IMG/VR virus record: IMGVR_UViG_3300023184_002982
Coordinates: 1 to 53,984 of that record
Length of the DNA: 53,984 nucleotides
From: a virus
Taxonomy: Duplodnaviria; Caudoviricetes
Strand: one strand, 5' to 3'
A program made the translations under genes and the position numbers. Below the pieces are notes generated by a model. The model was given only the letters and a program-made list of their open reading frames with translations, was not told where the DNA came from and ran no database searches. This document shows, one piece after another, positions 26,890 to 44,671 of the stretch (position 1 is the first letter of the stretch; each line of letters opens with the position of its first letter).

Positions 26890-27168
26890 ATGTTATCATA
26901 CGTGAAAGAATGGTTTAAAGTTAATGATTATCCAATTCATATTGTAGCAGGTAATTTTGACGAGTTTCAAAATTTTGTTATAAAGAAACGACAAATGGGT
27001 TTTCATTTTGAATACAGATATGTTCGTGATGTTGATTCTATTCGTGGTTTAGATAGAATTCGTGGTTTATATGTTGGTACATACAAAGATCGTCCAGACT
27101 TGCCAGAAATACAAGAATTCATTTATATAATAAAATCTAAACACAATTTCTACGAAAATAATGCTTGA
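26890..27168 (+). CDS. Hypothetical protein
   Basis: AGGAGG SD; stop TGA lies inside the first TTGACA of the array. Confidence 0.6.
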   Translation: MLSYVKEWFKVNDYPIHIVAGNFDEFQNFVIKKRQMGFHFEYRYVRDVDSIRGLDRIRGLYVGTYKDRPDLPEIQEFIYIIKSKHNFYENNA

Positions 27169-27222
27169 CACGATTACCGTTATTTGATACTATCTGTTTA
27201 TGGTAATCAATTCGGGGATGTT

Positions 27223-28593: not shown

Positions 28594-28654
28594 TACTTGA
28601 CAGGTTTACCGTTATTTGATACGATATGCTCTGGTTAATTAATTGGGGCATATT

Positions 28655-29131: not shown

Positions 29132-29350
29132 ATGAGCACATGGAATCTTGAAGGTATGACAGTTTTTGGTAATTATATGGGCGAGTTTCCTATTCGTGGT
29201 ACGGTGAGTTTATCGCGTGTTACCTATGGCGGTGGTGTTAGTCATCATGTCAAATTAGATACACCGATTAATGTGTATGGTGCTGAACGTGATGTGGTAA
29301 TTATGGAACACAAATATATTAATCGCGTGGCATCATCAAAAAGAGATTGA
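29132..29350 (+). CDS. Early hypothetical protein
   Basis: WNLEG..V.G.Y...SRV.YGG.V.H motif; GGGG SD. Confidence 0.65.
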   Translation: MSTWNLEGMTVFGNYMGEFPIRGTVSLSRVTYGGGVSHHVKLDTPINVYGAERDVVIMEHKYINRVASSKRD

Positions 29351-29409
29351 CACGTTTACCGTTTATTGGTACTATATGTTTGTTGATTGATTTTATTGGG
29401 AGATAAAAA

Positions 29410-30007: not shown

Positions 30008-30074
30008 TGCTTGACACGTTTACCGTTTATTGATACTATGTGTGTGTTGGTTGATTAATTCTAGGGAGAAAAAA

Positions 30075-30460: not shown

Positions 30461-30663
30461 TGACTAAGAAAATTCGAATCATTGTTAATGGTGTTTCATT
30501 TTATACAACCAAAAAGCAGATTGCAGAGGGCGTGGGCGATTTTATTGAACTCAATAATTATTGCAGAAAAATCTATAAAGAGTGTATTGAGGGTAAATAT
30601 GCAGGTTTAGGGTACACTTGTTACACTAATGATACAAAATACGATTTACAAATTAATTTATAA
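30460..30663 (+). CDS. Early hypothetical protein
   Basis: AGGAG SD; coupled start. Confidence 0.6.
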   Translation: MTKKIRIIVNGVSFYTTKKQIAEGVGDFIELNNYCRKIYKECIEGKYAGLGYTCYTNDTKYDLQINL

Positions 30664-30729
30664 AACACTTGACACGTTTACCGTTTATTGATATAATCTT
30701 TTCATTGGTTAATTAATTAGGGGATTAAA

Positions 30730-30999: not shown

Positions 31000-31068
31000 A
31001 TTAATGCTTGACACGTTTACCGTTTATTGATATACTCTGTTCATTGGTTAATTAATTGGGAGAAAAAA

Positions 31069-31425: not shown

Positions 31426-31437
31426 TAGGGGCATACA

Positions 31438-31611
31438 ATGAGCACAATTACTATTCAGATAACTACCGACAATGCAGCATTTGAGGATAACCCTACAGAA
31501 TTGTCGGATATACTAGAATCGATTGCTACACGTTACAGAGAAAGCGGCGATTTTTCGGATTATGTGTATGATTCAAATGGCAACAAAGTAGGTGAAATAA
31601 ACGTAAAATAA
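31438..31611 (+). CDS. Small early protein (not in ORF track)
   Basis: 57 aa; I.TDNAAFED...IL......D.NGNKVG; GGGG SD. Confidence 0.65.
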   Translation: MSTITIQITTDNAAFEDNPTELSDILESIATRYRESGDFSDYVYDSNGNKVGEINVK

Positions 31612-31675
31612 TGCTTGACAAGTTTACCGTTAATGGTTATAATCTGTTCATTGGTTAATTATTAGTGAGGTGATT

Positions 31676-31819
31676 ATGAGCACAGTTTACAAAATTGAGG
31701 AAGAATTTTCGTTGGGTGAGTTGTCATTTAGACAGATCGCCGAAAAGTATAATGTGAGCATTGCCGATGTTGAATTGATATTTGACGAGTTTATGAAAAA
31801 TATGGCAGAAGCTTATTAA
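31676..31819 (+). CDS. Small HTH-like protein (not in ORF track)
   Basis: 47 aa; LSFRQIAEKYNVSIADVELI; GAGGTG SD; own cassette. Confidence 0.6.
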   Translation: MSTVYKIEEEFSLGELSFRQIAEKYNVSIADVELIFDEFMKNMAEAY

Positions 31820-31887
31820 AAAACACTTGACACGTTTACCGTTTATTGTTATACTTTGTTCTGTTGATTGATTAATAGGGGCAAAAA

Positions 31888-32079
31888 ATGCAAATACTTC
31901 AAGGTTACTCGATTTGTGAATTAGATGATGGCGGATATATTATTCAAGCAAATGAATATGATGGTATTAATGATTTAACACCTAGTAAATTGCGTGATCG
32001 TTTTGGTGAAGTACGATTCGGTACATATTCACAGGCTGTTGTCGTATTGGCAACGCACTTATTAAAAGAAATTGCTTGA
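31888..32079 (+). CDS. Early hypothetical protein
   Basis: Own cassette and GGGG SD. Confidence 0.6.
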   Translation: MQILQGYSICELDDGGYIIQANEYDGINDLTPSKLRDRFGEVRFGTYSQAVVVLATHLLKEIA

Positions 32080-32135
32080 CACGTTTACCGTTATTTGATA
32101 CCATATCATTTCTGGTTAATTAATAGGGGATAAAA

Positions 32136-32420
32136 ATGTCTTTACTTTTCAATACCGATGAATTGCGCTCTATCGAGCAAACCACAAATAAACTAGTTGA
32201 CGTTGCTATGTCACTATCGGATAAAAATTCGCGTGATCGTATCAATGCAGTAACATTATCGACATTGGTATCTGAATTGCGTATGGTTGCATTTATTGCA
32301 GAGACTTCACCCGAAGCAGCAGCAACTAGACTTTTGGCAATGGTTGCGGGTTTGCGTAATAATGTCACAATTACAGATAATGAAGTGTTGGTAAATTCAG
32401 ACGGTGAAATTATCGCTTGA
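32136..32420 (+). CDS. Early helical protein, paralog of 29768..30007
   Basis: Shared motifs; own cassette. Confidence 0.65.
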   Translation: MSLLFNTDELRSIEQTTNKLVDVAMSLSDKNSRDRINAVTLSTLVSELRMVAFIAETSPEAAATRLLAMVAGLRNNVTITDNEVLVNSDGEIIA

Positions 32421-32477
32421 CATTGTTTACCGTTAATGATACCATACGTTTGTTGATTGATTAATAGGGGCGACAAA

Positions 32478-32717
32478 ATGGATATTGATGCGACAGGCGA
32501 TAAAACGGTGAACACAATAAAAACGGCAAAGCAGGGCAAAATTACTTATACCGTTGAAGCAGAGGAAAACGGTGCGGGTGATGTGTCCTATTATGTTGTC
32601 AAATGGGATAGTAATGGAATCGGCGAGTACGATTTTAGAAATTCATTTCGGGATAAAAACAAGGCAATTTATTTGCTTAATAAATTGGTAAGAAAAGAAA
32701 TATCGTGGGGCATCTAA
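32478..32717 (+). CDS. Early hypothetical protein
   Basis: ATG after cassette leader. Confidence 0.6.
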   Translation: MDIDATGDKTVNTIKTAKQGKITYTVEAEENGAGDVSYYVVKWDSNGIGEYDFRNSFRDKNKAIYLLNKLVRKEISWGI

Positions 32718-32785
32718 AAAACACTTGACACGTTTACCGTTTATTGATATAATCTGTTCATTGGTTAATTAATAGGGGCGCGAAA

Positions 32786-33136
32786 ATGAAAGTATTTGTT
32801 TATTACAATTTACATAAGAAAGTATTTTCAGTCAAAGCTCTGGAAGGTGCAGACAAAGGGCGAGTGATTGCACACTTGTCAGAATTGAATCTCGGTCAGG
32901 CTACGTTCAAAGTATCACAGGCAGGGCGTAAGCGTGTTCTATTGGAAAAGCGCAAAAACGTCCATGCGGGTGTAGTTGGTGAATGGTACGGTACAGTTCA
33001 GGCGATGGACAACGGCGTATCGGTGACATATAACCCTTATCTGTATGATTCATTCGTGACAGCAGACACAAAGCAGCCTATTTTCACCGCGAGGGAAGTA
33101 CACTTGAAAGATCGTAGAATTACTGCGATTATCTAA
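32786..33136 (+). CDS. Conserved phage early protein
   Basis: VYYNLHK..FSV, F.VS.AGR.RVL.EKRKNVHA.V.G, YNPY. Confidence 0.75.
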   Translation: MKVFVYYNLHKKVFSVKALEGADKGRVIAHLSELNLGQATFKVSQAGRKRVLLEKRKNVHAGVVGEWYGTVQAMDNGVSVTYNPYLYDSFVTADTKQPIFTAREVHLKDRRITAII

Positions 33137-33200
33137 AATAATGCTTGACATTGTTTACCGTTTATTGTAATATATCATTTTAATCATTAGGGGCGAGAAA

Positions 33201-33365
33201 ATGACCGAACAACAAATAGCAGCGATTAAATGTGCACTTGCTGATTTACAGGGTTCATTGCAAGCTTTTCAGCAGTCGGATATGTACGCACACGATTGGG
33301 AAGCGCATCAGCAGTCGATTGATGATTTATTAAATGAGTTTGATTTTTTAGCACAAATCGCTTGA
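33201..33365 (+). CDS. Small early protein (not in ORF track)
   Basis: 54 aa; AIKCALADLQG...HDWEAH; own cassette. Confidence 0.6.
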   Translation: MTEQQIAAIKCALADLQGSLQAFQQSDMYAHDWEAHQQSIDDLLNEFDFLAQIA

Positions 33366-33423
33366 CATTGTTTACCGTTTATAATATACTGTGTTCTGTT
33401 GATTGATTAATTAGGGGCGAAAA

Positions 33424-33822
33424 ATGGCATATATGAATCAAGAGAAAAAAGCGAAGATCGCGGCGGCAATCAAACCAATCTTAGCAAAATATAAACTCAA
33501 AGGCAGCTTGTCGGTTAATAATCATTCGTCAATTGTGTTGACAATCAAATCAGGCAGCATCGATTTTATCGGTAATTATAACTTGACAAATGCATCAAAA
33601 CCCCGTTTTGAAGGTGCAGAAAAATCGATACAGGTTAATCCATACTGGTATCAAGAGCACTTCGATGGCGTTGCTAAAGCAGCATTATCTGAGTTGGTTC
33701 CTGCGATGTACTCTGCCGATTATTATGACAATTCCGATATTCAAACCGATTATTTTGACACAGCGTATTATATAAGTGTTAACGTGGGACGTTGGAATAA
33801 ACCCTACGAATTAGTAAAATAA
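33424..33822 (+). CDS. LPD29-like (polyvalent-protein-associated) domain protein
   Basis: YDNSDIQTDYFDTAYY motif. Confidence 0.6.
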   Translation: MAYMNQEKKAKIAAAIKPILAKYKLKGSLSVNNHSSIVLTIKSGSIDFIGNYNLTNASKPRFEGAEKSIQVNPYWYQEHFDGVAKAALSELVPAMYSADYYDNSDIQTDYFDTAYYISVNVGRWNKPYELVK

Positions 33823-33886
33823 TTGCTTGACATTGTTTACCGTTTATTGTACACTATCATTTCTGGTTAATTAATAGGGGAAAAAA

Positions 33887-34228
33887 ATGCAAACAGTTAC
33901 ATTATCTGGTTTTCCTGAAATTGCTCGATTAATGCCAGTAGGTTACAAAAAACGCAAGGCATTCATTCAGAGCAGAGAAAAAATAACATTGTCAAATACC
34001 TATTGGGATGGCGGTAGTCGTTCTAGTTATACCATTGTTAATATTGTAACAGGTCAGATTACTACCTGCGCTCAATATTCACCACCAGAGTTCGGCGGTA
34101 TAACTCCAGTTGTCGAAATTGATAACGATATTGCTATTATTGAAACTGGTGTATTTTGCGGTAAACCTGCGACTGCTAGTGTGTTCGTTAGTCCAGAGAA
34201 TTACAATAAATTGTTGAAATTAGTTTAA
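33887..34228 (+). CDS. Conserved early hypothetical protein
   Basis: NTYWDGGSRS.Y, F.GK.A. Confidence 0.65.
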   Translation: MQTVTLSGFPEIARLMPVGYKKRKAFIQSREKITLSNTYWDGGSRSSYTIVNIVTGQITTCAQYSPPEFGGITPVVEIDNDIAIIETGVFCGKPATASVFVSPENYNKLLKLV

Positions 34229-34296
34229 ATAATAGTTGACAACGTTTACCGATTATGAGATAATTCATTTGTTGGTTAATCACATAGGGGCGATAA

Positions 34297-34527
34297 ATGA
34301 CTACAGTAGATCAAGTTAAAATGTTCGGTATGACAGAAGATGCAATACGCAATGAATACATGGATAGTATAACTGCGAAATTTTCAGGGCTTGAGATGGT
34401 CGTGGCAGGTATATTGTCGGATTGTCAAGAGCTAACAGCGATGGGTAGATCAGAGCAGGTAAGACAGCAATTGAACGTGGCAAAATTTATATTGTTTGAG
34501 ATGATTGACAAAAAAGAAACAGCATAA
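34297..34527 (+). CDS. Early hypothetical protein
   Basis: GILSDCQE...RQQLNVAKF. Confidence 0.65.
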   Translation: MTTVDQVKMFGMTEDAIRNEYMDSITAKFSGLEMVVAGILSDCQELTAMGRSEQVRQQLNVAKFILFEMIDKKETA

Positions 34528-34594
34528 AACAGTTGACAACGATTACCGATTAATATATACTTTGTGCATTGGTTGATTAATTAGGGGCGACAAA

Positions 34595-35170
34595 ATGACA
34601 ACAGCATTTTTCGGTAAAGTAATAGAAAACGAAGTTGCATACAATAATGCAATTAAGCGCAATATTATCGCAAATGCCAATAAAACATGGCGTTTAAATA
34701 CTGATCGTGCTGGTGAAATCGAGTTTGCATTGGGTGCTGGTCGCACCGAACATGGCTATACTGATAATTTCATAGGTGCAATGGCTGCTGCGTTTGATAC
34801 TTATGGCAAATTGTCAATTAAACAATCTGCTGCGATTTTAAAGGGTATCGATGCAATGGCTGCACGTAAAGCCGCATGGGTAGCTAAAAATGCCGCCAAT
34901 GATGCTACACGCGCTCATGTAGGCGTTGTGGGTGATAAATTGACAGTTACTCTCACAGTAAAGCACATTGTGTGTGTGGAAAGTCAATTCGGCACTAATT
35001 ACATTCACATTTGTGAAGATGCACAAGCGAATGTTATTATATACAAAGGCAAAGCATCAGGTTTTCCATTGAAGGGTGAAACCGCGACTATAGTTGCCAC
35101 AGTTAAAGAACATGCTTTGCGTGAAGGTGTTAAACAGACAATTATTCAACGACCAAAATTAGCTAACTAA
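34595..35170 (+). CDS. Early protein with C-terminal OB-fold-like domain
   Basis: HVGVVGDK...FG...D...NVIIYKG...ATVKEH...GVKQT.IQRP. Confidence 0.65.
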   Translation: MTTAFFGKVIENEVAYNNAIKRNIIANANKTWRLNTDRAGEIEFALGAGRTEHGYTDNFIGAMAAAFDTYGKLSIKQSAAILKGIDAMAARKAAWVAKNAANDATRAHVGVVGDKLTVTLTVKHIVCVESQFGTNYIHICEDAQANVIIYKGKASGFPLKGETATIVATVKEHALREGVKQTIIQRPKLAN

Positions 35171-35189
35171 TTAACAACTCTCCCCCCTT

Positions 35190-35216
35190 ACCTGCTGAAG
35201 TCTAGCAGGTTTTTTT
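35190..35216 (+). terminator. Rho-independent terminator closing the main cassette array
   Basis: ACCTGCT-GAAGTCT-AGCAGGT followed by a T run. Confidence 0.8.
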
Positions 35217-35235
35217 GTATCCATCGATAAAGTGT

Positions 35236-35256
35236 AAATGAGAATCATTCGCATTT
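35236..35256. promoter_or_regulatory. Fur-box-like palindrome
   Basis: AAATGAGAATCATTCGCATTT versus the 7-1-7 consensus TGATAATnATTATCA. Confidence 0.6.
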
Positions 35257-35378
35257 GTAATTGTATTTGCAAACAATAAATTAATTTGTATTGTCAGTCG
35301 TTTTATGACTGGTCAGTCACAATGTAAACGCACTAGTTGATTTGGTGTGTTTTTGTGGGACATTGTGGTACAGCTAAC

Positions 35379-35395
35379 TGCGAATTATTCTCATT
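35379..35395. promoter_or_regulatory. Second Fur-box-like palindrome, inverted relative to the first
   Basis: TGCGAATTATTCTCATT. Confidence 0.55.
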
Positions 35396-35487
35396 ACCAT
35401 TCAGAGTATCGCGCCATATAACACAGAATCACGCCAATGTCAAGCACCGAGTGTCATTGTTGTATTTCCGCAACACACAGATAATTC

Positions 35488-35516
35488 TTGACAATCCTGA
35501 AAAATTATGCTATACT
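35488..35516 (+). promoter_or_regulatory. Sigma70 promoter with no immediate ORF
   Basis: TTGACA-17bp-TATACT with extended -10 TGc. Confidence 0.65.
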
Positions 35517-35606
35517 GGAAGGTTAATCGTTACTATTAGTAAATTACTAATATAACGCGCAGGGTCACCGTCCACCCCCAGACACGCTGTTCGAACCATT
35601 GCAACC

Positions 35607-35635
35607 ATTATACCCGATAAGCGGTAAAAAATCAA
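35607..35635 (-). promoter_or_regulatory. Minus-strand cassette-type promoter
   Basis: TTGATT-TTTTACCGCTTATCGGG-TATAAT on the minus strand, with a TTTACCG core in a 17-bp spacer. Confidence 0.6.
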
Positions 35636-35722
35636 GTGGTTTATTTTTAAAAAAACAGTTGACACGTTTACCGATAATTGGTATTATACATTTACTGACT
35701 GATTAATAAGGGGATTGACAAA

Positions 35723-35899
35723 ATGACAAAATTAGCCGCCGCAGCAAAATTGTACGACACAAAATTTGCCGAATTGGAAAGTCTAGGTTTTTCTGAACAT
35801 GACGCATGGGTTGCAGCACTTGCAGCAGTTCGCGCAGTTTTTCCAAGTGTTACCGTTACACGCTCAGAGGGTTGGGTTTACGAATTGGCAACAGCTTAA
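35723..35899 (+). CDS. Small early protein (not in ORF track)
   Basis: 58 aa after the last cassette, GGGG SD. Confidence 0.6.
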   Translation: MTKLAAAAKLYDTKFAELESLGFSEHDAWVAALAAVRAVFPSVTVTRSEGWVYELATA

Positions 35900-35912
35900 T
35901 TAGGGGCAGACA

Positions 35913-36044
35913 ATGATTAAATTTATTGCAGGTGCGTTGTTTATGTTAGCTCTGGTTTACCCTGCTGTCACTAAGGACATTTTCGGGGATGCCGTGGACG
36001 CAGCAAATTCTGGTGTTAAAACAGCAATTAATTTAATTTCTTAA
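35913..36044 (+). CDS. Small membrane/exported protein (not in ORF track)
   Basis: MIKFIAGALFMLALVYPAV..., 43 aa, GGGG SD. Confidence 0.55.
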   Translation: MIKFIAGALFMLALVYPAVTKDIFGDAVDAANSGVKTAINLIS

Positions 36045-36058
36045 TCGGGGGGCTTGCC

Positions 36059-36205
36059 ATGTTTGAAACAGTTTACACATACGGAAAATTGGGCTACGTT
36101 GCCAAATTGGTAAGAAATGGGGTTTGCATCGGCACTTGGGTTTCTTACGATCTTAGCAACTTGCGCGATCAGGTAGAATCTTGGAAATTAACAAACTTGC
36201 ACTAA
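36059..36205 (+). CDS. Small early protein (not in ORF track)
   Basis: 48 aa, GGGGGG SD. Confidence 0.5.
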   Translation: MFETVYTYGKLGYVAKLVRNGVCIGTWVSYDLSNLRDQVESWKLTNLH

Positions 36206-36216
36206 GTTATCAGAAT

Positions 36217-36258
36217 GGCAGCGCAGCACAAAAACGCTGCGTTGTCAAGTTTTATTTT
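36217..36258 (+). terminator. Possible terminator hairpin
   Basis: GGCAGCGCAGC-ACAAAAAC-GCTGCGTTGTC (two G-U pairs) then AAGTTTTATTTT. Confidence 0.45.
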
Positions 36259-36407
36259 GAATGCGTTGCAAATACACAACACATGATACCAAAACGACAA
36301 TTGCTATTTTACTACTGTACTGAACGCTACAAGGAACATGCTATTTTGAAAGAGAACTCTTGTATGTGTATGAATTGGCATCCAAAATTTTTTTTTCCAG
36401 TAAAAAC

Positions 36408-36436
36408 TTGACACAGAAATTTTTTTGCGGTAAACT
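36408..36436 (+). promoter_or_regulatory. Sigma70 promoter overlapped by the inverted motif
   Basis: TTGACA-17bp-TAAACT; CGGTAAAC overlaps the -10. Confidence 0.6.
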
Positions 36437-36477
36437 TAGCTCAATTAGTAATTAACGGTAAACGATAGGAAAATACA

Positions 36478-36846
36478 ATGAAACTTAATAAAGATTTTGT
36501 TCCTACTTTCGACCCTAATTTTTTTATCAGATGTGAAGCACACAGAATAATGCGTATCGAAAGTTTTATAGTTTATATTCGCAAGCTTGGTCATTGGAAA
36601 ACCGAAGAGGATATCAGAGAACATCTGGAGTGGGTTTTAACTGAAGCATTGGGATCAACTAATCATTTTTTATCTGATGATGAACGCTCTGAGTTTTTTA
36701 AAGAGTTTGAGAGAATTTTCCGCGAAGATGTTCGCCAGCGTCAGGAACGGTTAGCTGATTACTTTAAATACGTGTGTTACAATGGATTACCTCCCCAACC
36801 ACTTAGACGTAAACGTAAGCACATAAACGTGGACTTGAGTAAATAG
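36478..36846 (+). CDS. Hypothetical protein
   Basis: 122 aa, bracketed by repeats. Confidence 0.65.
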   Translation: MKLNKDFVPTFDPNFFIRCEAHRIMRIESFIVYIRKLGHWKTEEDIREHLEWVLTEALGSTNHFLSDDERSEFFKEFERIFREDVRQRQERLADYFKYVCYNGLPPQPLRRKRKHINVDLSK

Positions 36847-36873
36847 TAATTAACGGTAAACGATAGGAGAATT

Positions 36874-37269
36874 ATGATGAATTGTGTAATTAGAGAATTT
36901 CTTGAAACCGCAGTAAAACAAACTAAACGCCTCCATAAGGCTAATCCTAAATTCGATCAAGATGACTTGAATGAATATTGTGCAGAACAATTTTCTGATA
37001 TGATTATAAAGAGATGTGTTGAACTTTCTAATAATGGTGACGTTATATCAGAGTATTTTGGTTTGAATTTGAATTTTAATGTTAGTAAACGAGATGCTCC
37101 TTTGGATAAATCTGAACAAGTCTCTAAACTAACACACGCATTATCGTTGATGAATGAAGTATTATATAATTGTGATAGTAAGTATGCAAATGATCTTGAG
37201 AACCTAACTGAAGATTTGGAACATATTTCTGATTCAATTGAATGTGACGTTTTGAAGAATATATTCTAA
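36874..37269 (+). CDS. Hypothetical protein (contains FAELIVxEC-like module)
   Basis: QFSDMIIKRCV...ISEYFGL; AGGAG SD. Confidence 0.65.
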   Translation: MMNCVIREFLETAVKQTKRLHKANPKFDQDDLNEYCAEQFSDMIIKRCVELSNNGDVISEYFGLNLNFNVSKRDAPLDKSEQVSKLTHALSLMNEVLYNCDSKYANDLENLTEDLEHISDSIECDVLKNIF

Positions 37270-37301
37270 ATGGAATTAACGGTAAACGATAGGAGATTAT
37301 A

Positions 37302-37601
37302 ATGGATATTGATAATGATGCACTTAATAAGTATTTGAAGCTAATCAGAAAACGGAATAGACATATAATGAAGTTGGATGCTATGCAATTGGAGTTGGAT
37401 AAGGCTAAAGATGAATTGAACAAAGAAACATACGATCAAATTTTTATACAAACACTGGCATATGATGATATATACTTCCCTACCAGAATTTCATTCACTA
37501 TACATCGAGAAGATGGTAAACCGTTTTTGTATTCTTCGACAACCGAACAAGATTTGTATGATCGATTAGAAGATGCTTTCGATGATATAAAAACATGTTA
37601 G
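37302..37601 (+). CDS. Hypothetical protein
   Basis: AGGAG SD directly after the repeat. Confidence 0.65.
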   Translation: MDIDNDALNKYLKLIRKRNRHIMKLDAMQLELDKAKDELNKETYDQIFIQTLAYDDIYFPTRISFTIHREDGKPFLYSSTTEQDLYDRLEDAFDDIKTC

Positions 37602-37633
37602 CCAGTTAAACTCTAATTAACGGTAAACGAACT

Positions 37634-38122
37634 ATGATAACGCAACAAAGACTCCATGAATTATTTGAGTATCGAGAAGATGGTAATCTGATATGGAAGA
37701 TAAAAATAGGTAAAAGAATTAAAGTAGGTGATATCGCTGGTGCCTACGATCAGGGATATACACGAATATCAATTAATTATACAAGATATCCTCTTCACAG
37801 ATTGATTTTTTTATATCATCATGGATATCTAACTGTTGGGTTACAGATAGACCATATTGATGGGAATTCAGAAAATAATCGGATAGAGAATCTTCGAGAG
37901 GTAACACAGAGACAAAATAATATGAATTCAAAACTCAAGGTTACTAATACATCAGGGGTTAAAGGTGTATACTGGAGTAAAGCTCAACGAAAATGGCATT
38001 CTCGAATAAAAGTAAACGGTAAGAATACACATCTAGGTTATTATGATACACTAGAAGAAGCTGAATCCGTAGTGAAAGATGCTAGAAAAAAATATCATGG
38101 TGAATACGCAAGACATAATTAA
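37634..38122 (+). CDS. HNH endonuclease with C-terminal AP2 domain
   Basis: HRLIF, IDHIDGNSENNRIENLR, NTSGVKGV.W, HLGYY...EEA. Confidence 0.9.
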   Translation: MITQQRLHELFEYREDGNLIWKIKIGKRIKVGDIAGAYDQGYTRISINYTRYPLHRLIFLYHHGYLTVGLQIDHIDGNSENNRIENLREVTQRQNNMNSKLKVTNTSGVKGVYWSKAQRKWHSRIKVNGKNTHLGYYDTLEEAESVVKDARKKYHGEYARHN

Positions 38123-38133
38123 CGGTAAACGAT

Positions 38134-38334
38134 ATGCCATTCAGACTGACTGAAGAGATGTGTTTAATTACGGTTCCTGATGCTAATCGGGAAGATGGGT
38201 ATCGCCACGTGGATTTGGGTAATTACTACATGGACGATAATAATAGAAAGTGTCTGGTCACAACCGCCGAACTCGCAGACAAATATTACAGGTATGTGCG
38301 GGTTCCTATGTACATAAGGAAGAAAATCCAATGA
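38134..38334 (+). CDS. Hypothetical protein
   Basis: ATG immediately after the repeat. Confidence 0.5.
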   Translation: MPFRLTEEMCLITVPDANREDGYRHVDLGNYYMDDNNRKCLVTTAELADKYYRYVRVPMYIRKKIQ

Positions 38335-38594
38335 GTACCCGTATTGAATACATTGCCAAGAAGGTCGAGAAACGAATACAGACCCGTGAGAGTGGCACCT
38401 ACGACACCCGCAAGTTCAATTATGAGTTTGCTAGGGATATCATAGACATTTGTATTGATCTGGTAGAAGAGGGTGTGGATCATCGTGAACCCGCCTCGAC
38501 GTATGCCGATAAGATAAAAGACTACTTTGGATTGGGACTTACCGCAGAGGATACCATGCGGAACCGATCCACCTACTATGGGAATAACCCATGA
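38331..38594 (+). CDS. Hypothetical protein (FAELIVxEC family)
   Basis: EFARDIIDICI...IKDYFGL. Confidence 0.6.
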   Translation: MSTRIEYIAKKVEKRIQTRESGTYDTRKFNYEFARDIIDICIDLVEEGVDHREPASTYADKIKDYFGLGLTAEDTMRNRSTYYGNNP

Positions 38595-38839
38595 ACAACA
38601 AATGGCTGATCGATAAACTTGGAACCGATGCTGGTTTACTGAATTACATCGAACATGAAACGCCTCGTCATTACTTTATGTCATCGTGGGCTGTCGAGGA
38701 TGATGTGTATACCTTCGCCAGAATGATAGTAGACGAATGCCTGAAACAGTGCTATGATCGCGGGATGGATGACGAACTGTACGAAGGTCAGTTGAAAGCC
38801 GCTGCCTACATCGAAGAACATTTTGGAATTAAAAAATGA
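38591..38839 (+). CDS. Hypothetical protein (FAELIVxEC family)
   Basis: TFARMIVDECL...IEEHFGIK. Confidence 0.65.
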   Translation: MNNKWLIDKLGTDAGLLNYIEHETPRHYFMSSWAVEDDVYTFARMIVDECLKQCYDRGMDDELYEGQLKAAAYIEEHFGIKK

Positions 38840-40489
38840 ACATTCGGTATAAAATTGGTATGGTGCTTAAAAATGTGTCCAGTGATGTGTGCATTAAACT
38901 CACATCCAAGCATAACGGTAATGGACACTGGAATTCGACCAAGATCAATGAAGGGTCTTCAAATAAGAACCATCGTATTCATGAACATACTCTGAATAAA
39001 TTTTATAGGATCATTGAAGAATGAACCGTCATGACCTAGATATCATATATGTAACATCTTTTTACGACATTCCATTAAAAGGTCTTTGTCGGTATGAAGG
39101 CAAAATCCAGAAGTTTGAAACGGACTATGATACAGAAGAATCCACTATCATTTTCCTGACACCCATGCAAAGGTTTCGTGAATTGTGGTCAAAGTGGTTA
39201 TTTGAGATTTGCGTAGGAACACACCAGACATATGAGAATGGTAAACGTGCTCATTACTTTTATTGGCGTAAACCAAAGTTCCTACATGCAATTCTTTACA
39301 AACTATATTTTAAGAGACGGAGAAAATGATTAATTGGATCAGAAGTTGGTTCGGAAAAGGAAAGGTTCATGTTATATGGGAAGGTGTAGACCGTTCCGGT
39401 AAATCAGTTTCGGGTGACGCTAAAGCACCTTATGTGGGTGTATGGAATGAAACTGCTATGATAAAACATATCAAAGATGAACTAATGTATCAGCATGATG
39501 TAACAGTGACCAACATACAAATTCTTGCTCATGTTGAAGGATAAAAAATGAAAATCCTATTTGTATCTCACTCACCAACACAAACGGTAGTCACCGTAAA
39601 GAAAGCAGGTGATATTAATACCCCAAACGAGTATCAAACCCATCTATACAATCACGATGGTGGATATACTGAAAAATGGAAAATAACCAATACGTTTGAG
39701 GAAGCAGCTTATATGCACAAACAACTATGTCAAAAATGTTATATAACGGTGAACATGTGAGTCCTGAACTAACAAAAAAACTTCTCGATAAGTATCCTAC
39801 ACTTTATAACCAACAACACTTTTGGGGTTTCGAGTGTGGTGACGGATGGTATGATATTATTGATCATCTCTCAAATGCTATTATCACATACACCAATCCA
39901 AAATCTGAGTTTGAGGTATTTAATGTTGTGGTATCTCAAGTCAAAGAGAAGTTCGGTGCGCTCCGATTCTATGCTGACAATACCGACAGAGTGGTTGACG
40001 GTATGATTTGGATGGCTGAACATATGTCGGAACATACCTGTGAGATTTGTGGTAATCGAGGTGAAATACGTAATGGTTCGTGGTTGGTAACGCTCTGTGA
40101 TAAACATCATGAAGAACGATTGAAGAGAGTATAATGGAAGAAGAATACGATGTGGTGGTTGACGTATTGGAGAAGCATTATAATAAACTTTTTCATATGT
40201 CTATAGCACAAATGAATTCGGGGTATGGTATGGGTATCATGGATGATATTCGCTTTAAACAGATGGAACAATTGCAACAGGCGATTGATATGTGGAAAGG
40301 AAGAGAATGAAACGTGATATACGATACCTGACATACAGTGAAGTTCAGGATATATTTGAGGATGTCTATGCCACAGGATGGCCTGGTCCAAAAATCAGTT
40401 CTAATGAAGAGAAATTTGCTCTGTTGATCCAGAAAGCATCTATGAAGATCAATGGTCTAACAATTCCCGTTTTTGAAGAGGATGAATAA
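38836..40489 (+). other. Run of short, translationally coupled hypothetical genes (38836-39024, 39021-39329, 39326-39544, 39548-39760, 39757-40134, 40307-40489 and a small ORF between)
   Basis: Overlapping or adjacent stop/start codons; 39757..40134 has ECGDGW...QVKEKFG.LRFY...CEICG, common in phages. Confidence 0.6.
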
Positions 40490-40622
40490 TGATATTTGCT
40501 ATTTTAATTTTAGTATTTCTATTTGCAGGTGAACCCGATGTATGGGACAATCTGCATGACTATGCTATGCACGTTACGGCTGTTCCTGCCAATCAAGTAA
40601 CTGTCGTGAACAAGGACTGCAA

Positions 40623-40874
40623 ATGAAAAAACTGATTATAATGTCAGTGGTACTTTTAGCAGCATGTAGCAAAGATGATAAACCATTTATTGATGAGCGT
40701 GTGGCAGATCAATGCTTACGTAGAGAACTATTCAATGAATGTATGAAAATGCTACCCGCTGGTCCAGTGGCAACGAAGTATAATGATTGGGATGAGGTTG
40801 TGGCTGAATGTGGTAGTCAAGCATATTATATGTCACACCGAAAAGAAAGCACAATACCACAAGGATGCAGATGA
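40623..40874 (+). CDS. Lipoprotein
   Basis: Lipobox LAAC; DQCLRRELF.EC. Confidence 0.7.
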   Translation: MKKLIIMSVVLLAACSKDDKPFIDERVADQCLRRELFNECMKMLPAGPVATKYNDWDEVVAECGSQAYYMSHRKESTIPQGCR

Positions 40875-41086
40875 TGAATGATCGATGGACTGAACTAGCA
40901 GAAGAGTGTTGGGATGAACATCTAATAGATGGTTGGCATTTTGACCAAGAAAAGTTTGCCGAGTTGATTGTGAGAGAATGTTTGACTCAGGTTGATAAAG
41001 TAGATACTATGCTTGAAGATAATAAAGAGAAAACAGGTGTAGCATGGGTTGGGTTGGCGATTGCAAAACATTTTGGAGTCGAATAA
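40871..41086 (+). CDS. Hypothetical protein (FAELIVxEC family)
   Basis: KFAELIVRECL...IAKHFGVE. Confidence 0.65.
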   Translation: MMNDRWTELAEECWDEHLIDGWHFDQEKFAELIVRECLTQVDKVDTMLEDNKEKTGVAWVGLAIAKHFGVE

Positions 41087-41382
41087 TGAGTTGCTACTTT
41101 GAACGAACCAAGTCGGACTTTCCTGAGTTTGATAGAGTATACAATACGGTACTGCTGCCAGAGAATCCACATGTACTAGATGAAATGGCAGCGTATGCTA
41201 ATTTCAACATATACCATCATGATCTGTGGAACAGCACTGGAAGACGATTCGCCGAAATGATTATCCGTAAATGTATAGAAATAGATAAAGATAATCCAGA
41301 TGCTGCTCCTGGTGTTGAGATAGCAAAATACTTTGGAATACACGATGAAGTACAAGTACAGGGCAAAACGTCCCAAGCGTGA
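41086..41382 (+). CDS. Hypothetical protein (FAELIVxEC family)
   Basis: RFAEMIIRKCI...IAKYFGI. Confidence 0.6.
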   Translation: MSCYFERTKSDFPEFDRVYNTVLLPENPHVLDEMAAYANFNIYHHDLWNSTGRRFAEMIIRKCIEIDKDNPDAAPGVEIAKYFGIHDEVQVQGKTSQA

Positions 41383-42080
41383 TCAACTTCATGGCATGTC
41401 TCCATCTGAATTAAAGACACTGCTAAAACGCCGTGGTTACAAGATTGATCGGGACTTCTTTAAGTTTTGCATTGCACGATACAAGAATCGGTCATATCGG
41501 TTTCGTTGGTGGTATACTGGTGGTGAGTTCTTTGTGGATATAAGTTGTGTCCATTCCGAGTTTGATCGTTGGGCTAATAGTACCGATGATGTCGTTAATT
41601 TTTATAATTGGTTAGAGGGACACGAATGAACGAATATGAATGGCAAGAAAGAAGTTCAGCACACTTTTACTATGACCTTGATACTGGTAAAGTAGTAGGA
41701 CATGTAAGTAAGATGGTGGCTAATGATATCTACATTGCTTTGGTCTATACGGGTCAATATACATTTACTTTGGATGATGAGCGTCATCTTGGTCAGTACA
41801 TTGATTTGAGTTCCGCTAAAGATGCTGTTGAACACTTTTGGGCAATACAGAATCGTACACTGCTGGAAGGTTAATGCACCCTCGCGCCGTTGAATTTCTG
41901 TTTGAGATGCAGTCTGAAAAGATTACTTGTATCTATTGCGGATTCGACAGAATTACTAAAGGCACCCACCTAGACAATAATAACGGATTGTCGGTATTCA
42001 TGAAGTATAGTTGTCAAATGTGCAAGAAAGAATTCTTGGATAAAGAAATACCACAGGCACTTGACACCGAAGATGAATAG
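41345..42080 (+). other. Three short hypothetical genes (41345-41629, 41626-41874, 41874-42080; the last has CxxC...CxxC)
   Basis: Coupled ORFs. Confidence 0.55.
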
Positions 42081-42089
42081 TGGTAAACT
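42061..42089 (+). promoter_or_regulatory. Sigma70-type promoter
   Basis: TTGACA-17bp-TAAACT with extended -10 TG. Confidence 0.55.
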
Positions 42090-42120
42090 ATGCGTACTTT
42101 CTCAATAAAGGAAACATATC

Positions 42121-42279
42121 ATGAGTGGCTTGAACAAGATGATTGTAGAGATTATGGAATTGCTGGAGTCTGATGTAAGCGTCACAGAAATCAGTAATAT
42201 GTTGTGCGTCACTCCGACAATGGTAGAATATGTTGCTACGGAGTATCTTGGTTATATTGATGATTCAGAGGCTCCATGA
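42121..42279 (+). CDS. Small HTH-like protein (not in ORF track)
   Basis: 52 aa; VSVTEISNMLCVTPTMVEYV; AAGGA SD. Confidence 0.55.
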   Translation: MSGLNKMIVEIMELLESDVSVTEISNMLCVTPTMVEYVATEYLGYIDDSEAP

Positions 42280-42550
42280 TAAAAACTACATGGTGGATAC
42301 TTGATCCCAAAGGTGTTAAGATAGGCTATACAGAAGACTTTGTTTATGCTATAGAATTACGCGATCACGGATTTAATATCATACAGGAGGAACCTGACGA
42401 TGTTCGGGCTGCTGCTTAACTTCATCCTGATGACTCTGTTTTGGGTTTGGGCAGTAGATCATTTTCAAGAAGACCGGAATATACAAGGTTGGTTCAATCT
42501 GGTCATGTCGGCAGCTAATGGTGCGTTTATATTATTTTACTTATTTTAAT

Positions 42551-42926
42551 ATGTATAGAGTAGATGTCCTCCGGTACATGACCGGAAAAAAACCCGATGT
42601 GGTTTTTACAAAAGAGTTTGAGACTCGCGGTGAAGCTAAAGACTATTACGAAGACTACAACAAAGGTGTCTTTCGTAATGCTTACTTACGTAATCCGGAC
42701 TTTTATTTCGTTGCAGTATATGTTGGTGGTAAAGTATTTGACCTTTATGGAGATAGACATGGAAAATGATTTTTGGAAGTTTATTGTTGGATTGGTAGTA
42801 TTTTTTGGTATTCTGTTTGGCGCATTGTCATACTCATCTACCCTTCGTACTGAATGTAAAATGTTGGCAATGGAGAAAGGATATTCCGCCATAGAAATCC
42901 AAGGAATTTGCGGTACACACGACTAA
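42551..42926 (+). other. Two short hypothetical genes (42551-42769; 42759-42926 with a TM helix)
   Basis: Coupled ORFs ending just before the terminator. Confidence 0.55.
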
Positions 42927-42941
42927 TCCGTAATTAACGGT

Positions 42942-42971
42942 AAAAAAGCCACAGTGATGTGGCTTTTTTTT
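42942..42971. terminator. Bidirectional rho-independent terminator
   Basis: AAAAAAGCCACA-GTGA-TGTGGCTTTTTTTT. Confidence 0.85.
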
Positions 42972-42996: not shown

Positions 42997-43026
42997 TTGA
43001 CAAGGTTTTCGAAGTGTGGTTATAAT
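42997..43026 (+). promoter_or_regulatory. Consensus sigma70 promoter pointing antisense into 43058..44671
   Basis: TTGACA-18bp-TATAAT with an A/T-rich upstream element. Confidence 0.65.
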
Positions 43027-43057: not shown

Positions 43058-44671
43058 TTAAGATACAATGTAATGAGGTGCTGATTTGAATTCATGGATT
43101 ATCTCCTTACCAGCAGTATCCTGAATGGTTTGTGTGATGGCATTCCGCATTCCAGTGTAATCATCCAAGTCAAACACTTTATGTGCTTTCTTAGTAATTA
43201 ATCCATAGATGGTAACAAACATCTTTTGTTTAAAGTACAATTGAAAGTTCTTATTACCTTCATTTAAAAAGTAAGAAATCTGAGCATGAGCAAAGTGTGC
43301 TTTGATTGTCTTAACTCTGGTATCTTTTGCACCAGGATACTTCTTATCGAAATGTCTTACTGCATTAATAAATTCATTCTGGTACTGAGTGTATGATGGA
43401 GTACTGTTGATTCCTTTATTACCAGTATAATCATCGTACCGATCAAAAAATTCTTTGACACCCTTCACTAAAGTTCCATAAACAATCTTCTGTTTAGACA
43501 ACTCAGAATGTGCCGTGGTCTTCAATGCTTTAATCTTCTCAAATGCTTCAGGATTCTTTGCTTGAAGTTTTTCAGTAAACTTATCAAATACCGACAATCT
43601 AAGTTCAACCATCTTTTTGACTGTTCTACCGTATTCTGGATACTCTTTGGCTATTCGCTCAAATGCTGGAATACTGGCACCACCAACCCACTGTTTGTCC
43701 TTAAACTCACGGGTACTAGCGTCAAACTGTCCATTCCAACCTGCACTGTGACCTTGTGCATACAAATTGAATCGTAAATTGTAATCCTCAAGAGGTTGAT
43801 TGGTTCTACGATCAATTAACTTCTTAAAATTGAAGTTTACTGGAAATACCCAATTCAACAACTCATGCATAATAAACTTATCAAAGTCAATCTCAATTAC
43901 TGTATCAATGATATGTTTGGTTTTATTGGGTTCATCTAATATCGCCGCAAGCATCTTCATAAACGGATCAATGTCTTCGCTGGAATTATTTTTCGTATCT
44001 AAACTAACCAATGATATTTTCGGTAAACTTGTTACATTTGTAGGAAGTTTTAATGACACCGGAATCAGCGTTCCTTCCTTCATGTACTTACCCATCATGC
44101 TTGCATAGTCATTGGTTCCAGATTTTCCCCATACCCCTTCTTTCAAAATGGTTTTAGGATCACTAAATGTACGTTTGAAGTCATCCATGATTTTCTTTTT
44201 CTCTGATGACTTAACGAAGAATACATCAACAGCAGAAAAGATGTCAACTTTTACAGATTTTGGATAACCAAATGCTGTTTTGATATTCGTAAGACAATTG
44301 TCTTTGACTGTCTTGGTGAATGGATCATCTTGATCAAGGAATTCGTATTGATTTAGCGGAAACTTAAACATTCGAGATTCCACACAGGCTCTTGCTACAT
44401 TGTAAACTTTTTTAGCAGTCGTATGAAATGATGGTTTACCTGTGGCAGTTTTGGTAACGGCAAATTCCGTTTTTACTTTATCAATCGGAAAAGTATTCGA
44501 TAAATATTTTTTCTTGTAGTTAGTAACGTTTTCCTTACCAGAAAAAAGCGTGTAGAATCTGATGGCATGTTCAGTATCTTTGTTACCAACAGGTTTTTCG
44601 TATTTTGGATGTTCAGCAAAGTATGAAAGTGCTAAACATTGTGCTAATTCTTTGGTATTAACTTTTGCCAT
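43058..44671 (-). CDS. Large putative PD-(D/E)XK nuclease-like protein
   Basis: N-terminal KELAQC helix, DIFSAVDVFFV and LIPVSLK pattern; GATAAATA late-promoter-like site at 44708-44701. Confidence 0.5.
   Translation of the reverse strand: MAKVNTKELAQCLALSYFAEHPKYEKPVGNKDTEHAIRFYTLFSGKENVTNYKKKYLSNTFPIDKVKTEFAVTKTATGKPSFHTTAKKVYNVARACVESRMFKFPLNQYEFLDQDDPFTKTVKDNCLTNIKTAFGYPKSVKVDIFSAVDVFFVKSSEKKKIMDDFKRTFSDPKTILKEGVWGKSGTNDYASMMGKYMKEGTLIPVSLKLPTNVTSLPKISLVSLDTKNNSSEDIDPFMKMLAAILDEPNKTKHIIDTVIEIDFDKFIMHELLNWVFPVNFNFKKLIDRRTNQPLEDYNLRFNLYAQGHSAGWNGQFDASTREFKDKQWVGGASIPAFERIAKEYPEYGRTVKKMVELRLSVFDKFTEKLQAKNPEAFEKIKALKTTAHSELSKQKIVYGTLVKGVKEFFDRYDDYTGNKGINSTPSYTQYQNEFINAVRHFDKKYPGAKDTRVKTIKAHFAHAQISYFLNEGNKNFQLYFKQKMFVTIYGLITKKAHKVFDLDDYTGMRNAITQTIQDTAGKEIIHEFKSAPHYIVS

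What the first reader, a model, noticed from the sequence alone, without database searches (positions are those of the whole stretch)
35600..42945. The spacer motif flips orientation at the hub and becomes a promoter-less gene-junction repeat
Seen: the 17 cassette copies (27165-35687) read GTTTACCG on +; from 36428 on the copies read CGGTAAAC (36428, 36449, 36847, 37274, 37614, 38116, partial 42931) although genes stay on +. The right-hand copies, TAATTAACGGTAAACGAT, lack flanking -35/-10 and sit between a stop codon and the next SD or ATG. One motif in two roles with polarity converging on a non-coding hub recalls iterons, KOPS or Ter sites. Inference: an oriented-site system for replication, packaging/ejection or site-specific cassette recombination; alternatively a roadblock or translational operator. 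No recombinase is visible in the window.
Basis: partly seen in the sequence, partly recalled or inferred. Interest (0 to 1): 0.82.

Follow-up and report, generated by a model that had tools for sequence, protein, structure and literature searches.

The report
Shared site in promoters and gene junctions
An uncultured freshwater T4-like phage carries one 15-16 base motif inside 17 near-identical early promoters and, reversed, at six gene junctions of the next operon; it looks like a private regulatory site, not a replication or packaging signal.

Summary
GTTTACCG occurs 26 times against 0.85 expected. Fifteen + strand copies, plus two GATTACCG variants, lie in the spacers of 17 TTGACA-17-TAnnnT promoters at 27165-35687. 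Six reversed copies lie at 36428-38130, and a 14/16 copy lies at 42932.

The right-hand unit AATTAACGGTAAACGA matches the reverse complement of the left spacer at 14 of 16 positions (chance about 4e-4).

The polarity reading is not supported:
- Each set is a family of repeats related by descent, so there are two orientation events, not 23.
- GC skew does not switch at the "hub".
- The "hub" holds three genes, three promoters and two terminators.
- Relatives with 56-83% primase identity lack the motif.
- Contigs from four lake metagenomes show no joints at the copies.

The window is a hyperplastic region of a T4-superfamily myovirus. The left copies are PeSL-like promoter cassettes. The right copies separate four unrelated genes, including an HNH-AP2 endonuclease, behind promoter P36408.

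TTACCG is invariant in 17 of 17 spacers while the -10 hexamer has nine variants, which suggests selection. My best reading (0.35) is an asymmetric binding site for an unidentified protein, working as an operator in the promoters and as a stoperator-like roadblock at the junctions. Rivals are recombination junctions, mRNA-mRNA pairing and a translational operator.

The parts
27165..27193 (+). early promoter cassette 1, spacer core GATTACCG
28597..28625 (+). early promoter cassette 2, spacer GTTTACCG
29347..29375 (+). early promoter cassette 3
30011..30039 (+). early promoter cassette 4
30669..30697 (+). early promoter cassette 5 (TTGACA-17-TATAAT)
31008..31036 (+). early promoter cassette 6
31615..31643 (+). 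early promoter cassette 7 (spacer GTTTACCGTTAAT, the variant closest to the right unit)
31827..31855 (+). early promoter cassette 8
32076..32104 (+). early promoter cassette 9
32417..32445 (+). early promoter cassette 10 (motif shifted 1 nt from the -35)
32725..32753 (+). early promoter cassette 11
33145..33173 (+). early promoter cassette 12
33362..33390 (+). early promoter cassette 13
33827..33855 (+). early promoter cassette 14
34236..34264 (+). early promoter cassette 15
34533..34561 (+). early promoter cassette 16, spacer core GATTACCG
35190..35210 (+). terminator-like hairpin that ends the left array
35659..35687 (+). early promoter cassette 17, drives genes 35723-36205
36216..36247 (+). 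terminator-like hairpin between cassette 17 unit and the right operon
36408..36436 (+). promoter P36408 (TTGACA-17-TAAACT); reversed 8-mer CGGTAAAC at 36428-36435 overlaps its -10
36450..36465 (+). right unit 1 AATTAACGGTAAACGA, in the 5' leader of gene 36478
36478..36846 (+). gene, 122 aa, no family, no homolog in relatives
36848..36863 (+). right unit 2, begins 1 nt after the stop of 36478-36846, followed by TAGGAGA and ATG
36874..37269 (+). gene, 131 aa, no family
37274..37289 (+). right unit 3
37302..37601 (+). gene, 99 aa, no family
37615..37630 (+). right unit 4, 3 nt before the ATG of the HNH gene, no Shine-Dalgarno
37634..38122 (+). HNH_3 + AP2 endonuclease gene, flanked on both sides by the 16-nt unit
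38117..38132 (+). right unit 5, contains the HNH stop codon, 1 nt before ATG 38134
38134..38334 (+). ORF, 66 aa, no Shine-Dalgarno, no homolog in relatives; overlaps start of conserved gene 38331-38594
42932..42944 (+). partial right unit (14 of 16) after the last gene of the operon
42942..42969 (+). terminator hairpin that ends the P36408 operon

Best explanation
The element is a discrete, asymmetric 15-16 bp site. It is a tandem pair of heptads, CGTTTAC|CGTTWAT as read on the left. It is private to this phage lineage and has been built into two kinds of repeated regulatory junction in a hyperplastic region of a freshwater T4-superfamily myovirus.

On the left, the site fills the spacer of 17 strong sigma-70 early promoters, which are PeSL-like cassettes without the stem-loop. 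On the right, it overlaps the -10 and the early transcribed region of promoter P36408. It then recurs, in the opposite orientation, at the stop-to-start junctions of the first four or five genes of that operon and once more at its end.

I infer that an unidentified sequence-specific DNA-binding protein, probably phage-encoded, recognises the site. Bound in a spacer it would occlude RNA polymerase and shut off the early promoters together. Bound at the junctions it would act as a roadblock to elongation, as the stoperators of mycobacteriophage L5 do.

Shown: the copies, their contexts, the 14/16 shared core, its invariance, and its absence from relatives.
Inferred: that a protein binds, and what binding does.

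The change of orientation reflects only that the two repeat families each descend from one founder copy.
For: (1) The right conserved unit is exactly coextensive with the part it shares with the left spacer. AATTAACGGTAAACGA against the reverse complement of the left consensus, AATAAACGGTAAACGT, gives 14/16. A local score this high arose in 8 of 20000 shuffles and in 6 of 15861 random window 23-mers.
(2) The spacer core is more conserved than the promoter's own -10. G 17/17, T/A, TTACCG 17/17 and a following T 17/17, against nine different -10 hexamers among the 17 promoters. The copies were found through TTGACA and TAnnnT, not through the motif.
(3) In a strain with 92% nucleotide identity, 5 of 5 cassettes keep TTTACCG, although one has changed the two bases next to it.
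(4) The flanks of the right units diverge immediately outside the 16 bases. The distance to the next ATG varies from 1 to 12 nt from the end of the 16-nt unit, and one copy has no downstream gene. The unit is therefore not tied to the ribosome-binding site.
(5) The right junction RNAs have no stable fold (z +0.5 to +1.7 in four of five). This argues against an RNA structure.
(6) The copies at 36428 and 36450 sit at -10 and about +5 to +20 of P36408, which are classical operator positions.
(7) There is precedent. The L5-type repressor binds an asymmetric 13-mer as a monomer, both in promoters and in short intergenic spaces (PMC9283540, passages read).
Against: - No DNA-binding protein was identified. 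61 proteins of 26.4-46.8 kb gave no DNA-binding Pfam domain except the AP2 domain of the HNH endonuclease. Only about 31% of the genome is in hand.
- Relatives manage without the motif. By my reading of the list, 0 of 67 listed promoter-like sites in G001 and G002 have TTACCG in the spacer, so the promoters do not need it.
- The copies within each family are related by descent. Part of the invariance could come from recent spread or gene conversion.
- In L5, stoperators share one orientation with respect to transcription across the whole set. Here the promoter copies and the junction copies are opposite.
- A heptad spacing places the two half-sites on different faces of the helix, which is unusual for a repressor.
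- No expression or binding data exist.
Confidence: 0.35

Rival explanations
1. The copies are recombination junctions with no binding factor. Both families would be short repeated sequences that spread by, and then serve, homologous or microhomology-mediated modular shuffling in the hyperplastic region, as proposed for PeSLs. The reversed core on the right would be a relic of an inverted fragment of a promoter cassette that was multiplied as genes were inserted one after another.
For: - The region is a hyperplastic region. Window 26.4-44.7 kb corresponds to G001 119.5-129 kb, with shared genes in shuffled order.
- The right-block genes 36478-38334 have no homolog in G001 or G002, nor in the nearest metagenome relatives.
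- The four genes between the units are unrelated to each other, so they look like independent insertions.
- The HNH gene is bracketed by 16-nt direct repeats. In 80 homologous loci the longest flanking repeat was 4-8 nt in 79 and 11 nt in one.
- PeSL papers describe degraded partial PeSLs at indels (PMC4122927, parts 1-2 read).
Against: - Sixteen bases is short for homologous exchange.
- No other phage in IMG/VR carries the 16-mer more than once (37 loci, each with a single match), so no donor pool is visible.
- Contigs from four lake metagenomes show no joints at the copies, and the same order is bridged in three further studies. Contigs drop rare variants, so this is weak evidence.
- A relic does not explain why TTACCG is more conserved than the -10 hexamer.
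- It does not explain the sharp 16-nt boundary kept in 5 of 5 copies.
Confidence: 0.25
2. The right unit is a translation-level element, and its likeness to the promoter spacer has no function. It would be a standard translation-initiation cassette or an operator for an RNA-binding repressor such as RegA.
For: - Three of five units are followed by the same TAGGAGA Shine-Dalgarno and an ATG 5-7 nt further on.
- The leaders are unstructured.
- RegA (PF01818) is present in 4 of 4 long relatives searched.
- Cluster K mycobacteriophages carry a repeated 13-mer, GGGATAGGAGCCC, just before start codons (PMC3203893, passages read).
Against: - Two of five units have no Shine-Dalgarno and abut the ATG at 3 and 1 nt.
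- The 42932 copy precedes a terminator, not a gene.
- The conserved block is the 16-mer upstream of the Shine-Dalgarno, and it is exactly the part shared with the promoters (chance about 4e-4).
- RegA is in relatives that lack the motif.
Confidence: 0.15
3. The two families pair as RNA. All genes are on +, and no terminator is predicted between the left cassettes, so read-through early RNA carries up to 16 copies of CGUUUACCGUUUAU. These are complementary to AAUUAACGGUAAACG next to the ribosome-binding sites of the right operon. Pairing would mask those sites or mark them for cleavage.
For: - Reversed orientation on the same transcribed strand is what complementarity requires.
- Predicted duplex energy, left against right, has a mean of -18.4 kcal/mol (85 pairs). 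Shuffled left sequences give -10.5 +/- 3.1, and random window 40-mers give -9.0 +/- 3.3; 7 of 500 of the latter reach the mean.
- The only + strand terminator-like hairpins from 27.1 to 43 kb are at 35190, 36216 and 42942.
Against: - I know of no such mRNA-mRNA control in T4-like phages (recalled, not searched).
- Fifteen base pairs with a mismatch is short for RNase III.
- Both partners come from sigma-70 promoters of the same class, so no timing logic is evident.
- The 42932 copy and the 36428 copy do not fit this reading.
Confidence: 0.1
4. This is the reader's main idea: an oriented-site system such as iterons, KOPS or Ter, or a packaging signal, whose polarity marks an origin, a terminus or a packaging start at 35.7-36.4 kb.
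For: The only support is the change of orientation itself.
Against: - There is no GC-skew switch.
- The orientations come from two repeat families, so n = 2.
- The motif is at background in five relatives, two of them complete genomes with terminal repeats.
- The copies are confined to promoter spacers and to one operon, not spread along the DNA.
Confidence: 0.03

Closest known systems
PeSL (promoter-early stem-loop) cassettes of T4-like phages (PMC2839356, listing and start of abstract only; PMC4122927, parts 1-2 of 3 read)
   Same: Both are repeated, near-consensus sigma-70 early promoters with an AT-rich upstream part and a shared leader, Shine-Dalgarno and ATG. Both are clustered between small ORFans in a hyperplastic region whose gene content and order differ between relatives.
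   Different: - No stem-loop terminator precedes the promoters here.
- The spacer carries an invariant core.
- That core recurs reversed at promoter-less junctions, which the PeSL papers I read do not describe.
Operator and stoperator sites of the cluster A mycobacteriophage (L5) repressor (PMC9283540, passages)
   Same: In both, one asymmetric short site occurs in many copies, in promoters and in short intergenic spaces between stop and start. The junction copies here all share one orientation with respect to transcription.
   Different: - This is a lytic T4-like phage with no identified repressor.
- The sites lie in the promoter spacer.
- The promoter and junction copies have opposite orientation.
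- The junction copies are confined to one operon.
- Binding is untested.
Start-associated sequences (SAS) of cluster K mycobacteriophages (PMC3203893, passages)
   Same: Both are repeated motifs at stop-to-start junctions of non-structural genes, with function unknown. The SAS contains GATAGGAG, which also follows three of the right units here.
   Different: The SAS is the Shine-Dalgarno region itself, 3-7 bp from the start. Here the conserved unit lies upstream of the Shine-Dalgarno at a variable distance, and it also occurs where no gene follows.

Membership tests
PeSL cassette | Strong sigma-70-like early promoter (TTGACA-N17-TATAAT type) with shared leader, Shine-Dalgarno and ATG | tested here: met
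   17 of 17 left copies
PeSL cassette | Stem-loop terminator just upstream of the promoter | tested here: not met
   No + strand terminator-like hairpin between 27165 and 35190
PeSL cassette | Located in a hyperplastic region next to genes that differ between relatives | tested here: met
   Synteny with G001 and G002 and with metagenome relatives
PeSL cassette | Exchanges, deletions or mini-circles with breakpoints in the repeats | tested here: inconclusive
   No joints at the copies in contigs of 4 runs.
L5-type operator/stoperator system | Asymmetric short site in many copies, in promoters and in short intergenic spaces | tested here: met
   17 promoter copies, 5 full junction/leader units, 1 copy overlapping a -10 and 1 partial copy
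L5-type operator/stoperator system | One orientation with respect to transcription across the set | tested here: not met
   Promoter copies and junction copies are opposite, although all genes are on +. Within each set the orientation is uniform.
L5-type operator/stoperator system | Cognate repressor gene | tested here: inconclusive
   None found among 61 proteins of 26.4-46.8 kb. Only about 31% of the genome is in hand.
L5-type operator/stoperator system | Protein binding and block of elongation | not testable with these tools
   Needs EMSA and in vitro transcription
Start-associated sequence (SAS) | Conserved motif that includes the Shine-Dalgarno at a fixed 3-7 bp from the start codon | tested here: not met
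   From the end of the 16-nt unit to the ATG: 12, 10, 12, 3 and 1 nt. Two copies have no Shine-Dalgarno, and one has no downstream gene.
Iterons / KOPS / Ter-type polar sites | Orientation switch coincides with an origin, terminus or skew switch | tested here: not met
   GC skew stays positive throughout 1-43 kb
Iterons / KOPS / Ter-type polar sites | Conserved in related genomes | tested here: not met
   Background counts in G001-G005 and in 80 metagenome loci totalling 523,684 bases
Integron-like cassette array | Site-specific recombinase next to the array | tested here: not met
   No recombinase domain in the window's proteins that I scanned
Integron-like cassette array | Junction sites that fold as imperfect hairpins (attC) | tested here: not met
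   The junctions are unstructured
T7-type single-subunit RNA polymerase promoter | Cognate polymerase gene (PF00940) | tested here: inconclusive
   0 of 5 records, but the control genomes also gave no match, so the search has no positive control
T7-type single-subunit RNA polymerase promoter | Conserved initiation region after the binding region in all copies | tested here: not met
   Two of five units lack the ATAGGAGA part. The likeness to T3/T7 promoters is recalled, not computed.

The most novel reading that the evidence does not exclude
The reversal is the point. The left array's read-through early RNA, with up to 16 copies of CGUUUACCGUUUAU, would act as a multi-copy antisense partner for the ribosome-binding leaders of the adjacent operon. 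That operon carries the exact complement 3-4 nt before its Shine-Dalgarno sequences. This would be an mRNA-mRNA timing switch inside a lytic T4-like phage.
Probability: 0.1. Interest if true: 0.75.

Novelty: new variant of a known kind. Interest (0 to 1): 0.42.

Why it matters
T4-like phages outside the T-even group lack MotA (0 of 5 records here, though that search had no positive control). How they switch off early genes is poorly understood.

A lineage-private site sits in every early promoter of a hyperplastic region and again at the junctions of a neighbouring operon. That would point to a recently evolved, dedicated regulator, and it would give a simple handle for finding it: a 16-mer probe.

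If instead the copies are recombination junctions, they would extend the PeSL idea to much shorter, promoter-less repeats.

Either way, the finding removes an attractive but unsupported origin or packaging reading.

Tried and rejected
- RNA families. Rfam gave no match over the whole window at gathering scores, nor over 35100-36500 at E up to 1. ARAGORN found no tRNA in the window.
- RNA sequencing runs: no RNA holder listed.
- Close relatives of the block proteins. There were none in IMG/VR for 36478-36846, 36874-37269 or the 537-aa protein 43058-44671.
- The 191-aa protein 34595-35170 as an anchor. It returned 54 loci, mostly from unrelated phages with 40-62% GC and without the motif or the cassettes.
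- The exact 16-mer in IMG/VR. It matched 37 loci, each once, which is what I estimate chance would give. Several of these lie in coding sequence, and four encode ...NGKRYIG. I read this as the start of GIY-YIG-type genes but did not test it.
- The exact 17-mer of the left promoter. It matched only one other multi-copy contig, a strain with 92% identity that ends at the sixth cassette.
- ESM Atlas. There were no usable leads for the 122-aa and 131-aa proteins.
- Reversed copies as minus-strand promoters. Only one of five has a weak match, TTTACC-17-TATATT at 9 of 12.
- T7/T3-type promoter likeness. It is recalled, and two of five copies lack the initiation part.
- MotA (PF09114) and T7-type polymerase (PF00940). 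Both gave 0 of 5 records, but neither search had a positive control.
- The HNH endonuclease as the cause of the repeats. This is rejected because 80 homologous loci carry neither the motif nor long flanking repeats.
- Low GC of the block as a sign of foreign origin. The block genes have 0.30-0.37 GC, inside the range of the left-array genes at 0.29-0.43.
- Supplements of the cited papers were not consulted.

Full report
WHAT THE WINDOW IS

The window is a whole IMG/VR virus record of 53,984 bases, which CheckV estimates to be 31% complete. Its DnaG-type primase is most similar to those of Methylophilales phage Melnitz (43.5%), Pelagibacter phage Mosig and cyanomyoviruses. The window also encodes both ribonucleotide reductase subunits, an exonuclease and a 2OG-Fe(II) oxygenase. 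Near-identical DNA is present in lake and freshwater metagenomes from several studies. This is a fragment of an uncultured freshwater myovirus of the T4 superfamily.

THE OBSERVATION

GTTTACCG occurs 26 times, against 0.85 expected. All 15 + strand copies lie between 28604 and 35666.

A promoter scan that did not use the motif found 17 TTGACA-17-TAnnnT promoters between 27165 and 35659. Each has the motif in its spacer: 15 as GTTTACCG and 2 as GATTACCG. All share an A-rich upstream part and a leader of the type TTGGTTAATTAATTAGGGG...ATG.

Six reversed 8-mers lie at 36428, 36456, 36854, 37280, 37621 and 38123. Five of them belong to an identical 16-mer, AATTAACGGTAAACGA. A 14/16 copy lies at 42932, between the last stop codon of the operon and a strong terminator hairpin.

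THE TWO SETS SHARE ONE SITE

The reverse complement of the left spacer consensus is AATAAACGGTAAACGT, and the right unit matches it at 14 of 16 positions. Two left copies (31615, 32417) read GTTTACCGTTAAT, as the right unit does. A local match this good arose in 8 of 20000 shuffles of the right consensus and in 6 of 15861 random 23-mers of the window.

The shared part is coextensive with what is conserved on the right, because the flanks differ immediately outside the 16 bases. Read on the left strand, the site is a tandem pair of heptads, CGTTTAC|CGTTTAT.

SIGNS OF CONSTRAINT

Anchored on the core, G, TTACCG and the second following T are each present in 17 of 17 left copies, while the -10 hexamer has nine variants among the 17. 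A strain contig with 92% nucleotide identity keeps TTTACCG in 5 of 5 shared cassettes, although one changed the two adjacent bases. Overall, the cassettes are not more conserved than the surrounding genes: 30 differences in 296 columns against 288 in 3405.

ANATOMY OF THE RIGHT SIDE AND THE 'HUB'

- Terminator-like hairpins on + lie at 35190, 36216 and 42942.
- Promoters lie at 35488, 35659 (cassette 17) and 36408.
- Three small genes lie at 35723-36205.
- P36408 is TTGACA-17-TAAACT. The 36428 8-mer overlaps its -10, and right unit 1 lies a few bases after the expected start.

The operon then runs to the terminator at 42942. Its first four genes are unrelated to each other. Three have no family, and the fourth is an HNH_3 + AP2 endonuclease.

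Three units are followed by TAGGAGA and an ATG. The units before the HNH gene and before ORF 38134 have no Shine-Dalgarno. The junction RNAs have no stable fold.

RELATIVES

The primase search recovered long relatives: G001 (146 kb, 83% identity), G002 (172 kb, terminal repeats, 76%), G003, G004 and G005 (56-73%). The 8-mer is at background in all five.

G001 and G002 have many TTGACA-17-TAnnnT promoters, but their spacers differ from one another. By my reading of the list, 0 of 67 contain TTACCG, and no non-coding 10-mer is repeated in these genomes.

Synteny shows that window 26.4-44.7 kb is a hyperplastic region equivalent to G001 119.5-129 kb. Shared small genes appear in a different order. 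Genes 36478-38334 have no homolog there, while 38331, 38591, 39727 and 40489 do, behind a different promoter.

Eighty metagenome loci anchored on gene 39727 gave the same picture. These total 523,684 bases, and the nearest are 76-87% identical. The motif and the right block are therefore private to this lineage.

TESTS OF THE POLARITY AND RECOMBINATION IDEAS

- GC skew stays positive across the switch.
- Because each set is a repeat family related by descent, the orientation contrast rests on two events.
- Contigs of four runs from four studies reproduce the arrangement. They bridge the copies at 36428/36456, 36854, 37280+37621 and 38123 with no differences, and none of the listed joints ends at a copy.
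- The HNH gene is bracketed by the 16-mer. In 80 homologous loci the longest flanking direct repeat was 4-8 nt in 79 and 11 nt in one, and none carries the motif nearby. The repeats therefore do not travel with the endonuclease.

READING

A stand-alone 16-base unit occurs in three settings: promoter spacers, the -10 and leader of another promoter, and stop-to-start junctions. Its core is invariant, its boundaries are sharp and it has no RNA fold. It is most simply a recognition site on DNA.

The closest worked example is the repressor of mycobacteriophage L5. That protein binds an asymmetric 13-mer as a monomer, both in promoters and in short intergenic spaces, where it stops elongation (PMC9283540). 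I therefore favour an operator plus roadblock system that shuts off early genes of the hyperplastic region, at confidence 0.35.

The weaknesses of this reading:
- No binder has been found. 61 proteins of 26.4-46.8 kb have no DNA-binding Pfam domain apart from the AP2 domain of the endonuclease, and about 69% of the genome is missing.
- Relatives do without the site.
- The two sets have opposite orientation.
- Descent could explain part of the invariance.

RIVALS

- PeSL-like recombination junctions with no binding factor (0.25). The setting and the lineage-specific, unrelated genes fit (PMC4122927). I found neither breakpoints nor a donor pool.
- A translational element (0.15). RegA is present in 4 of 4 long relatives searched. 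The variable spacing, the copies without a Shine-Dalgarno and the copy before a terminator argue against it.
- RNA-RNA pairing between read-through left-array RNA and the right leaders (0.10). The mean predicted duplex energy is -18.4 kcal/mol, against -10.5 +/- 3.1 for shuffles.
- The polar-site system (0.03).

NOVELTY

Repeated early-promoter cassettes in T4-like hyperplastic regions are known as PeSLs. Repeated junction motifs are known in mycobacteriophages as stoperators and start-associated sequences (PMC3203893). What is new here is that a single private site links the two contexts in a T4-like phage, with a spacer core more conserved than the -10 hexamer. I did not search the literature specifically for this combination beyond.

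Statements about lambda Q, SPO1 TF1, and T4 RegA, RegB and MotA that shaped my thinking are recalled and are not used as evidence.

Noticed in passing
window 2620-2638 (IGR 2580-2676): A further reversed copy, CGGTAAACGA, forms the apex of a perfect hairpin GAATTCG-GTAAA-CGAATTC. This sits inside a larger stem (TAGAGGCA...TGCCTCTA) in the intergenic region before gene 2677-4338. The fold energy is -20.6 kcal/mol with z -3.6. It is followed by TATAAAATA, which resembles a T4 late promoter (recalled). G001 has an extra gene at this place.
   Followed up: partly
window 35488-35660: A strong promoter, TTGACA-17-TATACT, faces about 140 nt of non-coding sequence before cassette 17. This stretch contains GTTCGAACC (like a tRNA T-loop) and a partial reversed motif, CGGTAAAAAA, at 35622. 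Neither ARAGORN nor Rfam matched it. Strains differ here (table 3). It could be a small RNA or a decayed tRNA.
   Followed up: partly
L186 (G002 41.8-46.4 kb), L182 (G001 128.6-130.4 kb): The relatives carry tRNA clusters in the equivalent hyperplastic region: 23 in L186 alone for G002 and 3 in G001. The window has none. Instead it has a 537-aa minus-strand gene (43058-44671) with no family and no relatives in IMG/VR.
   Followed up: no
window leaders after each left promoter; also G001, G002 and metagenome relatives: The leaders (TTGGTTAATTAATTAG, or CTGTTGATTGATTAAT) place stop codons in all three frames just before the Shine-Dalgarno. The TGATTGATTAA type recurs in relatives whose spacers differ.
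   Followed up: no
G002 34156 and 40249; G001 121117 and 123473; L274 288; L277 3535; L279 2820 / L281 4997: Some hyperplastic-region promoters of relatives have ACCG(A/T) at a similar place in the spacer, for example agtaAACCGATactctg. One promoter, seen in two loci, has the reversed 7-mer CGGTAAA in its spacer. This may be shared ancestry of the cassettes or a weaker version of the site.
   Followed up: no
window 40940-40985 (gene 40871-41086): This stretch of about 45 bases attracts very high depth and many unrelated contigs in all four metagenomes (tables 2 and 7). It is evidently a short segment shared by many other phages or organisms.
   Followed up: no
window 42997-43026: A consensus promoter, TTGACA-18-TATAAT, on + lies just after the operon terminator. 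It points into the 3' end of the minus-strand gene 43058-44671, so it may drive an antisense transcript.
   Followed up: no
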